Shown: one piece after another, positions 14,025 to 15,421 of the stretch
Numbering within the stretch: position 1 is the stretch's first letter
How the letters are laid out: every line of letters begins with the position of its first letter
Assembly: GCF_009914755.1 (NCBI RefSeq)
Contig: NC_060932.1
DNA: 64,000 nt
Source of the DNA: the human T2T-CHM13v2.0 reference genome, Homo sapiens
Strand: one strand, 5' to 3'
The notes under the pieces: model-generated
What the model saw: only the letters and a program-made list of their open reading frames with translations
Told to the model about the DNA's origin: nothing
The model's database searches: none
Position numbers and translations under genes: made by a program

Positions 14025-14530
14025 ACTGGAGAGAAGCCCTACAAATGTAAAGAATGTGGCAAAGCTTTTAGACGGTCCAGAAGCCTGAATGAACATAAGA
14101 ATATTCATACTGGAGAGAAACCCTACACATGTCAAGAATGTGGCAAAACTTTTAACCAATCCTCCAGCCTTGTTATACACAGGAGCATTCATTTTGAACA
14201 AAAACTTTACAAATGTGAAGAATGTGGCAAAGCCTTTACTCAGTCTTCATCCCTCAATAAACATAGGAGAATTCATACTGTTGAAAAACCCTACACATGT
14301 GAAGAATGTGGCAAGGCCTTTTATAGGTCCTCAAACCTTATTGAACATAAGAATATCATGCTGGAGAGAAACCCTACAACTGTGAAGAATGTGTCAAGGC
14401 CTTTTGTAGATCCTCACACCTTACTAAACATAAAAGAATTCACTCTGGGCAAAAACCCTGCACGTGTGAAGAATGTGGCAAAGCTTTTACTTGGTCCTCA
14501 ACCCTTACTGCACACAGTAGAATCATACAG
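14025..14530 (+). pseudogene. C2H2 zinc-finger array fragment (6 fingers), retrocopy of a KRAB-ZNF (ZNF595/ZNF718-like by recall)
   Basis: Manual translation: [110 protein letters not shown]/fs/[55 protein letters not shown]/fs/HT. The ORF track missed it because this frame has no ATG. Confidence 0.95.
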
Positions 14531-14794
14531 AAACTCTCAGACTCCAAATGGTCCTGCAACGGGAATATCGACCTATTTTCCTCCCTTCTGGACAGCCATG
14601 TCCCTACACATTTCCTTTGAACACTGCAAGTTAAACCTTCTGGGAGAACATGGAGGAAATCTTTTTCTGACAAAGAGCAAGAGAATGAGACAGTGATGAG
14701 TTCTTTATCTCATGTCAGCAGGAAGTAGTTACAGAAGACCCACAGTGCCCCTAGACTCAAAGATTTTTAGAGTCTCAATCTATTGAGGAGGCAG
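14531..14794 (+). mobile_element. ERV (class I) env 3' end and polypurine tract
   Basis: Translates as [16 protein letters not shown] (gamma-type Env tail LQMVLQ..YxxPhi). Also cagcaggaagtag motif and a purine run gaggaggcag before the LTR. Confidence 0.75.
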
Positions 14795-15421
14795 TTTTAG
14801 AGTAGTCAGTTAGTTAGATGGGAGCAGGAAAAAAAAGACCCCCTGGGGGAGAAAAATCTCATGGTCCAAAGACAACCCAAAAGATGTATGCTAAATTTGA
14901 TCAGAGAGGAGCGGAAACACCTATGAAGAAAGTGTACCCTGAAACATCCCTTAAGACACCCAGTAATTGCTCCTACTGTGGTTAAACTGTCAGAATGTAG
15001 CTAGCTACATGCTGATAAAAAGGGGGAAAGGGCAAAAGGACAATTCCTAAGAGATATGCAGGCACAATAAGCACAGATTTGACTGCTATATGATTTTTCT
15101 AGGGTGGTAGTAATGAGCAATGCTACCATTAAGACTCATTGGTCATTGGAACTCATACATGTACATCAGCTGACAGTAAGGAAGCATCTCACAGACCTGG
15201 GCAGAAACTCAGTGGGAATAAAAGAAGAGATTTACCAGGAAGCAGGAAACTAGACAAAGGAAGACACTTAAGACAGAGGTGGGAATTTTTTTTAAGTCTA
15301 TGATAATAAAAACTGCAACATGTAACTCTCAAGGCTGTTTCCAGCTGGGCCAGCCCACTCCTCTTTTGGTGTGTACTTTATTGTCCATTAATAAACTCTT
15401 TGCTTGCTTCAAAAAAAAAAA
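14795..15421 (+). mobile_element. ERV1 LTR U3-R (MER61/MER83/MER84-like), cut at the poly(A) site and followed by an A tail
   Basis: Starts t(t)ttagagtag after the PPT. AATAAA at 15390-15395, A11 at 15411-15421; no recognisable U5. Confidence 0.75.

What the first reader, a model, noticed from the sequence alone, without database searches (positions are those of the whole stretch)
14025..15421. Chimeric KRAB-ZNF / ERV env-LTR retrocopy: fossil of a zinc-finger mRNA spliced into a provirus and polyadenylated in its LTR
Seen: six C2H2 fingers stop abruptly in the linker at cat aca g| (14530). The sequence runs straight into an env-like tail, a PPT, an LTR, AATAAA (15390) and A11 15 nt later, with no U5. 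Known: an HTGEK linker coded cat aca g|gt gag is a consensus 5' splice site. Class I ERV env 3' ends carry a cryptic acceptor just before the (K/R)LQMV motif, and LTR R regions supply poly(A) signals. Inference: a parent KRAB-ZNF used a linker-embedded donor to splice into a downstream provirus, ended in its 3' LTR, and that mRNA was retrotransposed by L1 with 5' truncation. This would record a route by which an ERV shortens the finger array of a gene family that represses ERVs.
Basis: partly seen in the sequence, partly recalled or inferred. Interest (0 to 1): 0.8.

Follow-up and report, generated by a model that had tools for sequence, protein, structure and literature searches.

The report
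Retrocopy of ZNF mRNA ending in ERV
This chr8 stretch is a dead, reverse-transcribed copy of an ancient zinc-finger gene messenger from chr4 whose last exon lay in a retrovirus remnant, so it preserves an old splice event but is otherwise an ordinary processed pseudogene.

Summary
The finger half (window 14025-14530) and the ERV half (14531-15411) both have their best genomic match at one locus on chr4p16.3. They lie on the same strand, in the same order, 9.4 kb apart. The chr4 sequence reads CAG|GTGAGA straight after the finger match. It reads a pyrimidine tract plus AG| straight before the ERV match. The copy ends in A11 where the chr4 LTR continues into U5. So this is a 5'-truncated processed pseudogene of a spliced host-ERV chimeric mRNA. 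By gene order the parent is probably ZNF876P. The ERV is a Syncytin-2-like (HERV-FRD-like) env plus 3' LTR remnant.

Three corrections apply:
- The donor lies after the last finger, five codons before the natural stop, so the ERV exon does not shorten the array.
- No target-site duplication is detectable.
- The copy lacks two fingers that the parent has.

Estimated age is about 22-40 Myr. This is a new member of a known kind and of modest interest.

The parts
14025..14530 (+). Six C2H2 fingers. This is the 5'-truncated 3' part of the finger exon of the chr4p16.3 parent. Fingers 1-5 correspond to C4:247504-247931 and finger 6 to C4:248098-248176.
   Evidence: Identity excluding gaps is 92.5% for fingers 1-5 and 93.5% for finger 6. 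Pfam zf-C2H2.
14453..14462 (+). Approximate site of a 168-bp (two-finger) loss relative to the parent. The breakpoint cannot be placed more exactly because it lies in a repeat-identical stretch.
   Evidence: The parent and the ZNF595-like paralogue both carry two further fingers (...LNEHKKIH / ...LNEH.NIH types) between finger 5 and the last finger. One search aligns window 14453-14530 to the parent's last finger.
14356..14356 (+). 1-nt deletion that frameshifts finger 4 of the copy.
   Evidence: alignment (AATA-TCAT) and (unit of 83 nt).
14530..14531 (+). Exon-exon junction. It joins the donor exon end C4:248176 (followed by GTGAGA) to the acceptor exon start C4:257579 (preceded by TTTCCTCTCACCTAG).
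   Evidence: The 9,402-nt stretch C4:248177-257578 that lies between the two halves on chr4 starts with GTGAGA.
14531..14634 (+). Codons of the env cytoplasmic tail ([10 protein letters not shown]...), ending at a TAA at 14632-14634 that the parent copy does not have.
14635..14795 (+). Spacer between env and LTR, with a short purine run (GAGGAGGCAG, 14785-14794) directly before the LTR start.
   Evidence: In one search, homology of solo LTR copies starts at L012 1768-1780, which corresponds to about window 14796.
14796..15411 (+). U3 and R of the 3' LTR. The start is accurate to a few bases.
   Evidence: dispersed LTR copies; LTR span L012 ~1768 to 2420-2435.
15390..15395 (+). AATAAA poly(A) signal. 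The parent copy now reads AATGAA.
15411..15421 (+). A11. The first A is shared with the parent's ...GCTTCA, and the rest is an untemplated poly(A) tail.
   Evidence: The parent continues CTAATTGTCT... (U5) at this point.

Best explanation
Window 14025-15421 is a processed pseudogene (retrocopy). A KRAB zinc-finger gene of the chr4p16.3 cluster produced an mRNA in which a 5' splice site was joined to a 3' splice site 9.4 kb downstream. The gene is the third in the cluster and is probably the one now called ZNF876P.

The donor lies in the pseudo-linker after the last finger (ACA G|GTGAGA). The acceptor lies in the env gene of a downstream Syncytin-2-like ERV remnant (...CACCTAG|AAACTC). The transcript was cleaved and polyadenylated at the R/U5 border of that ERV's 3' LTR.

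The mRNA was then reverse-transcribed and inserted on chr8, presumably by the L1 machinery, with 5' truncation inside the finger array. It is non-functional: it has no promoter, no KRAB and broken reading frames.

Shown: the collinear two-part origin, GT/AG at the breakpoints, the poly(A) tail at the LTR cleavage site, the absence of U5 and the absence of flank homology. Inferred: L1 as the agent, the gene name, the age (about 22-40 Myr) and that the parent fingers were still open at the time.
For: 1.. The best non-self match of the finger half is C4:247504-248006 (89%). The best non-self match of the ERV half is C4:257577-258456 (89%). Both are on the + strand and in the same order.
2.. The last finger of the copy aligns to the parent's last finger, ending at C4:248176. 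The ERV half starts at C4:257577/9.
3.. The parent continues GTGAGAAAC after ...CAGACAG.
4.. The parent reads GTTCGTTTCCTCTCACCTAG directly before AAACTCTCAG.
5.. The copy's homology ends at ...GCTTCA, 16 nt after AATAAA, and is followed by A11. The chr4 LTR goes on for about 40-55 nt.
6.. Neither flank of the copy (13653-14024, 15422-15730) matches the parent region.
7.. No other locus carries the junction. The only other matches that begin at the junction base are the native chr4 provirus copies, where env lies upstream.
8.. The paralogous ERV copy at C4:429k has no finger exon upstream. That leaves C4:248k/257k as the only locus with both halves.
9.. Six ZNF 3' ends lie along C4 in the same order and number as ZNF595, ZNF718, ZNF876P, ZNF732, ZNF141 and ZNF721 in Table 3 of PMC4804413.
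Against: No target-site duplication was found. The best local match between 66 nt spanning the copy's 5' end (13965-14030) and 75 nt spanning its 3' end (15396-15470) scored 7.5, and 142 of 500 shuffles reached that score. It is also not adjacent to the insert. The only adjacent candidate (AGTAAAGA before the insert, AGTAGA after the tail) is my own reading and is not significant. The upstream flank shows no clear TT/AAAA nick site.

The copy lacks two fingers that the parent has. This needs an extra event.

The tree of the ERV half does not resolve whether the copy split from the C4:257k lineage after or just before the 257k/429k duplication:
- ML places the copy outside (257k, 429k) with only 84/90 support.
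- Informative sites split 4 / 8 / 3.
- K2P distances favour the copy grouping with 257k: 0.108 versus 0.143 and 0.153.

No RNA evidence was available for the splice in living cells. The gene name rests on gene order only. A protein search did not return a named human ZNF876P.
Confidence: 0.93

Rival explanations
1. Template-switch chimera. During one L1 reverse-transcription event the enzyme jumped from an ERV transcript to an unrelated ZNF mRNA, as in U6-L1 and other chimeric retrogenes.
For: Such chimeras exist (PMC4476161 and PMC5470649; search listing and abstract starts only). The copy also shows a two-finger skip that could itself be a reverse-transcriptase slip.
Against: Both parts come from one locus, on the same strand and in the same order, 9.4 kb apart. 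The break falls exactly at GT and AG with a pyrimidine tract. A random jump would hit GT and AG together in about 1 case in 256, before collinearity is even counted.
Confidence: 0.02
2. DNA-level origin. A segment of chr4p16.3 was duplicated to chr8, and the 9.4 kb between the finger exon and env was later deleted.
For: The chr4 cluster is rich in segmental duplication and internal deletion. One example is the C4:429k partial copy, which has lost the finger exon.
Against: The flanks share no homology with chr4. An untemplated A11 sits exactly at the LTR cleavage site. The deletion would have to run exactly from GT to AG.
Confidence: 0.01
3. Same mechanism, different parent. The mRNA came from the common ancestor of the C4:257k and C4:429k duplicates, or from the 429k duplicate before it lost its finger exon, and not from the present ZNF876P lineage itself.
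For: The ML tree groups 257k with 429k to the exclusion of the copy at 84/90 support. Eight informative sites support that grouping, against 4 for copy+257k and 3 for copy+429k.
Against: Pairwise K2P puts the copy closest to 257k: 0.108, against 0.143 to 429k and 0.153 between 257k and 429k. In the first ~120 nt the copy agrees with 257k against 429k at many sites and at a 3-nt indel. 429k now has GG at the acceptor and no finger exon. Gene conversion among the chr4 copies is evident as a mosaic pattern.
Confidence: 0.2

Closest known systems
Processed pseudogenes as fossils of old transcript isoforms (general class; reviews PMC5470649 and PMC4772013, seen as search listing and abstract starts only)
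   Same: Intron removed exactly at the splice sites. A poly(A) tail sits at the mRNA cleavage site. The copy is 5'-truncated, lies at a dispersed site and was dead on arrival.
   Different: The recorded isoform ends in an ERV-derived terminal exon. No target-site duplication is visible.
TE-supplied terminal exon and poly(A) signal. One example is the L1-derived terminal exon of ATRN described in PMC3554611 (passages read). LTR-supplied poly(A) signals of HHLA2/HHLA3 are recalled and come from no call.
   Same: A host donor splices to an acceptor inside a TE, and the transcript ends at the TE's own poly(A) signal.
   Different: Here the acceptor lies in env coding sequence and the signal in the 3' LTR of the same provirus remnant. 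The evidence is a genomic retrocopy, not RNA.
HERV-W processed pseudogenes made by L1 (PMC5016936 and PMC5537654; search listing and abstract starts)
   Same: ERV sequence ends in U3-R plus poly(A) without U5 and was moved by a non-LTR route.
   Different: In HERV-W the ERV's own transcript was copied. Here only the last 880 nt of an ERV ride along as the 3' exon of a host ZNF mRNA. The ERV is Syncytin-2-like, not W.
Template-switch chimeric retrogenes (U6-L1 and others; PMC4476161, listing and abstract start)
   Same: A bipartite retrocopy with one poly(A) tail.
   Different: Those join unlinked RNAs without splice signals. This one joins two exons of one locus at GT/AG.
ERV3 / ZNF117 (H-plk) read-through transcripts (recalled; no call)
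   Same: A provirus and a Krueppel-type ZNF gene share one spliced transcript.
   Different: The order is reversed there, with the ERV promoter upstream of the ZNF exons. This comparison was not tested here.

Membership tests
L1-type processed pseudogene (retrocopy) | Intron missing exactly at the parent's splice sites | tested here: met
   Donor ...CAG|GTGAGA at C4:248176/7. Acceptor ...CACCTAG| at C4:257578/9. The copy joins them at 14530|14531.
L1-type processed pseudogene (retrocopy) | Untemplated poly(A) tail at the cleavage site downstream of AAUAAA | tested here: met
   AATAAA at 15390-15395 and A11 at 15411-21. The parent continues with U5 instead.
L1-type processed pseudogene (retrocopy) | Target-site duplication flanking the insert | tested here: not met
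   The best flank-to-flank match scored 7.5, a score reached by 142 of 500 shuffles, and it is not adjacent to the insert. Decay or a target-site deletion could explain this.
L1-type processed pseudogene (retrocopy) | No homology of the flanks to the parent locus | tested here: met
   BLAST of both flanks against 4 parent-locus loci (L039, L040, L012, L014) gave no hit at E <= 0.01.
L1-type processed pseudogene (retrocopy) | TT/AAAA-like nick site at the 3' junction | tested here: inconclusive
   The flank after the tail starts GTAGATGG. The pre-insert sequence ends ...CAGTAAAGA. No clear consensus is visible.
Template-switch chimeric retrogene | Parts derive from unlinked transcripts and are joined without splice signals | tested here: not met
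   The parts are collinear in one locus and are joined at GT/AG.
TE-derived terminal exon with LTR poly(A) signal | Acceptor inside the TE and cleavage at the LTR R/U5 border | tested here: met
   The acceptor lies in env codons ...H L|E T L.
TE-derived terminal exon with LTR poly(A) signal | Transcript evidence (cDNA or RNA-seq junction) | not testable with these tools
   Only the retrocopy itself bears witness. A protein search for the env tail inside longer proteins found nothing, which is weak evidence.
Gamma-type (class I) ERV env, Syncytin-2 / HERV-FRD-like | TM subunit homology, including the CX6CC motif | tested here: met
   Parent provirus copy read with X at its 4 in-frame stops before the env stop codon. 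Pfam TLV_coat scores 9e-17 over profile positions 411-559/560. Syncytin-2 7oix_A scores 3.7e-39. CLMLGEKCC is visible. The Repbase/Dfam family name could not be determined.
KRAB zinc-finger gene | Tandem C2H2 fingers with TGEKP linkers | tested here: met
KRAB zinc-finger gene | KRAB box | tested here: inconclusive
   The copy has none because it is 5'-truncated. In the parent region a KRAB A box (Pfam PF01352, 3.7e-27) lies at C4:~211,992-212,120 on the + strand, 35 kb upstream of the finger exon. That it belongs to the same gene is inferred.

The most novel reading that the evidence does not exclude
The splice was more than noise. It joined the finger ORF in phase to the env gene's own reading frame (ACA G|AA ACT...). 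The ancient KZFP isoform therefore carried about 46 residues of a retroviral Env cytoplasmic tail in place of its last five residues. By parsimony, the parent's six fingers covered by the copy were still open when the copy was made. The parent's two frameshifted units are intact in the copy. The retrocopy would then record an ERV-derived coding C-terminus of a once-functional ERV-repressor-type gene, perhaps linked to that gene's later decay into a pseudogene.
Probability: 0.1. Interest if true: 0.5.

Novelty: new member of a known kind. Interest (0 to 1): 0.3.

Why it matters
The copy is a clean, datable genomic record. Roughly 22-40 Myr ago a KRAB-ZNF gene of the chr4p16.3 cluster used a terminal exon and poly(A) site supplied by a downstream ERV remnant. 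It adds one documented case of ERV exonisation in the gene family that silences ERVs. It also gives an exact junction (T2T chr4:248,176 to 257,579) that can be looked for in present-day RNA data.

It does not show that ERVs trim finger arrays, and the copy itself has no sign of function. Its practical value is for annotation: a chr8 pseudogene of ZNF876P type, and a possible alternative 3' exon of the parent.

Tried and rejected
- Naming the parent by protein search. The parent's last five fingers (149 aa) returned 1317 ZNF proteins at E <= 1e-20, but no named human ZNF876P among the 120 listed. The name therefore rests on gene order.
- Present-day proteins carrying the env tail. A search among longer proteins found no hit from 1 candidate.
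- Naming the ERV by protein search. The env TM against longer proteins gave no hit from 349 candidates. The PDB search worked instead.
- Target-site duplication. None was found.
- A 5' LTR of the provirus in the 9.4-kb intron. BLAST of the 3' LTR against the intron gave no hit, so the provirus remnant is 5'-truncated.
- An inverted or extra 5' segment of the copy. Window 13653-14024 has no match to the parent region, and 13900-14024 matched only itself genome-wide.
- KRAB within 8 kb upstream of the finger exon. None was found. One was found 35 kb upstream.
- A sub-threshold Pfam 'Omega-toxin' match of the 34-aa env tail (20.2 bits, cutoff 22) is taken as chance.
- Literature. 'ZNF876P' occurs in 34 papers, of which 15 were listed. 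None of the listed titles concerns a retrocopy or an ERV exon. Two were checked by passages. I did not see the other 19, and I could not search retrocopy databases.

Full report
**What is in the window.** Window 14025-14530 holds six tandem C2H2 finger units. Their anchors lie at 14046, 14130, 14214, 14298, 14381 and 14465, spaced 84, 84, 84, 83 and 84 nt apart. Pfam zf-C2H2 scores 4e-30 and 2.1e-10 for the two reading segments. Unit 4 carries a 1-nt deletion. Unit 6 has a net 1-nt loss near its end.

Finger homology stops at ...CATACAG (14530). From 14531 the sequence is an ERV 3' end, made of four parts:
- About 34 codons of an env cytoplasmic tail in the frame [10 protein letters not shown]....
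- A 160-nt spacer.
- An LTR from about 14796, with AATAAA at 15390-15395.
- A run of 11 A at 15411-15421.

**Where it came from.** The human assembly was searchable. With window 13900-15500 as query, the best non-self match of the finger part is C4:247504-248006 (+, 89%). The best non-self match of the ERV part is C4:257577-258456 (+, 89%) (ERV part alone).

The first alignment forced the copy's sixth finger onto the wrong parental unit. Realigned, window 14453-14530 matches the parent's last finger, C4:248098-248176 (72 of 80 columns). Excluding gaps, identities are 92.5% (fingers 1-5), 93.5% (finger 6) and 90.3% (ERV half).

**The junction.** After ...CAGACAG the chr4 sequence continues GTGAGAAACATAGTTGA (one search shows the intervening segment starting with GTGAGA). 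Directly before AAACTCTCAG the chr4 sequence reads GTTCGTTTCCTCTCACCTAG. The copy therefore lacks exactly C4:248177-257578. That is 9,402 nt bounded by GT and AG, with a pyrimidine tract before the AG.

It excludes contiguity in the parent, and it makes a template jump or two separate insertions very unlikely. No other place in the genome carries the junction. The other matches that start at the junction base are the native chr4 provirus copies, which have env upstream.

**The 3' end.** The copy's homology ends at ...GCTTCA, and A11 follows. The chr4 LTR continues CTAATTGTCT... at that point. Dispersed LTR copies stay homologous to the chr4 LTR from L012 1768-1780 to 2416-2435. The LTR is thus about 650-670 nt, and the copy lacks its last 40-55 nt (U5). 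That is the expected end of an RNA cleaved at the R/U5 border. The parent now reads AATGAA where the copy keeps AATAAA.

**The ERV.** The chr4 copy upstream of the acceptor was read with X at its four in-frame stops. It is an env TM subunit:
- Pfam TLV_coat scores 9e-17 over profile positions 411-559 of 560.
- The best solved relative is Syncytin-2, 7oix_A, at 3.7e-39. That alignment runs through the membrane span into ...[15 protein letters not shown].

Env of this ERV occurs at only five loci, four on chr4p16.3 and one on chr16. The four chr4 copies are segmental duplicates. The region downstream of the ZNF718-like finger exon is collinear with the parent's intron and ERV. The acceptor AG belongs to the ERV. 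It is present in the 257k, 171k and chr16 copies, mutated to GG in the 429k copy, and deleted in the 470k copy. I found no 5' LTR in the intron. I could not obtain a Repbase/Dfam name.

**The parent gene.** A search with the parent's 3' flank found six ZNF 3' ends along C4: 86.9k (+), 157.1k (+), 248.2k (+), 260.9k (-), 369.6k (+) and 433.1k (-). Table 3 of PMC4804413 lists the distal 4p16.3 genes in the order ZNF595, ZNF718, ZNF876P, ZNF732, ZNF141, ABCA11P, ZNF721 (passages). By order, the third is ZNF876P. This is an inference, because a protein search did not return a named human entry.

The parent finger exon is a pseudogene today, with stops and frameshifts. A KRAB A box (Pfam, 3.7e-27) lies 35 kb upstream on the same strand.

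1. The donor is not inside the array. The parent ORF ends ...TVHQRIQTGEKHS*, and the donor G|GT is the first codon after ...IQT. The ZNF595-like paralogue ends in the same way (...RIHTGKEHS*) but has GGC there, so it has no GT donor. The ERV exon therefore replaces five residues, not fingers.

2. The splice is in phase with env's own frame. The donor exon ends with the first base of a codon, and the acceptor exon supplies AA of env's GAA codon. The ancient mRNA would have encoded fingers followed by about 46 env-tail residues. In the copy this is now out of frame because of the 1-nt loss in finger 6.

3. The copy lacks two fingers (168 nt) that stand between finger 5 and the last finger in both the parent and the ZNF595-like array. 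They were probably lost in the copy, in the source allele, or by a reverse-transcriptase slip between repeat units.

4. Two frameshifted parental units are intact in the copy. By parsimony, those fingers were open when the mRNA was made.

**How it was inserted.** Four features are the marks of L1-mediated retroposition, a mechanism known from established literature:
- exact intron loss;
- the poly(A) tail;
- 5' truncation inside the exon, at the position corresponding to C4:247504;
- flanks unrelated to chr4.

No target-site duplication is detectable, however (best score 7.5, reached by 142 of 500 shuffles). I see no clear TT/AAAA site either. This is the main gap in the evidence. Decay, a very short duplication or a target-site deletion would explain it, and the empty site in an outgroup would decide.

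**Age and exact parent lineage.** K2P between copy and parent is 0.095 over 1,374 aligned sites (fingers 0.080 and 0.068, ERV half 0.105). That corresponds to about 22 Myr at 2.2e-9 per site per year and about 40 Myr at 1.2e-9. Both rates are recalled values.

The copy, the 257k ERV copy and the 429k ERV copy form a near trichotomy:
- K2P is 0.108 (copy-257k), 0.143 (copy-429k) and 0.153 (257k-429k).
- ML puts the copy just outside (257k, 429k) with 84/90 support (8 rows, one of them built from three pieces of L036).
- Informative sites split 4 (copy+257k), 8 (257k+429k) and 3 (copy+429k).
- The copies show mosaic patterns that suggest gene conversion.

The 429k copy has lost the finger exon. 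The retroposition thus happened at about the time of that duplication. Only the 248k/257k locus still holds both halves.

**Comparison with what is known.** TEs that supply terminal exons and poly(A) signals are textbook (PMC3554611, passages). Retrocopies preserve old transcript forms (reviews seen as listing and abstract starts only). HERV-W transcripts were copied by L1 into U5-less pseudogenes (PMC5016936 and PMC5537654, listing and abstract starts). Template-switch chimeras are the main look-alike, and the GT/AG collinear junction excludes them.

I found no paper on this copy. The search for 'ZNF876P' gave 34 papers, of which 15 were listed and 2 were read by passages. RefSeq annotates no gene here (hub note). 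I could not see retrocopy databases or GENCODE.

**Verdict.** The wider claim about shortening finger arrays is not supported. The feature is a new member of a known kind and of modest interest.

Noticed in passing
L042/L013: C4:422.5k-430k: A partial duplicate of the parent locus. Sequence homologous to C4:239.0-242.6k abuts sequence homologous to C4:254.06k onward. The finger exon is therefore deleted while the ERV remnant is kept. Its acceptor AG now reads GG.
   Followed up: partly
L043/L044/L017: C4:157k-171.4k: The ZNF718-like locus has the same ERV remnant about 12 kb downstream of its finger exon. It is collinear with the parent's intron and keeps the AG acceptor. The ERV therefore predates these gene duplications. 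Whether that gene also splices into the ERV was not examined.
   Followed up: partly
L036: C4:470.5k-471.5k: The fourth chr4 ERV copy carries an Alu insertion in the stretch between env and LTR. It also has a small deletion that removes the acceptor region.
   Followed up: no
window 14130-14297 vs C4:247609-247773: Two parental finger units are frameshifted (83 and 82 nt), but their counterparts in the copy are 84 nt and open. The divergence of the finger half (K2P 0.07-0.08) is lower than that of the ERV half (0.105). This hints that the parent fingers were under constraint for some time after the copy was made.
   Followed up: partly
L016: C4:85.6k-86.9k: The ZNF595-like array shows a 6-finger (504-nt) periodicity. 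The finger half of the copy matches two successive blocks at 87% and 85%.
   Followed up: no
window 13337-13652 and 15730-16000: Alu elements flank the copy at about 370 nt upstream (antisense) and about 310 nt downstream (sense). They are not part of it.
   Followed up: no
L037/L038: C16:52.266-52.268M (-): This is the only env-bearing relative of the ERV outside chr4 (69-72% identity). It also has AG at the acceptor position.
   Followed up: partly
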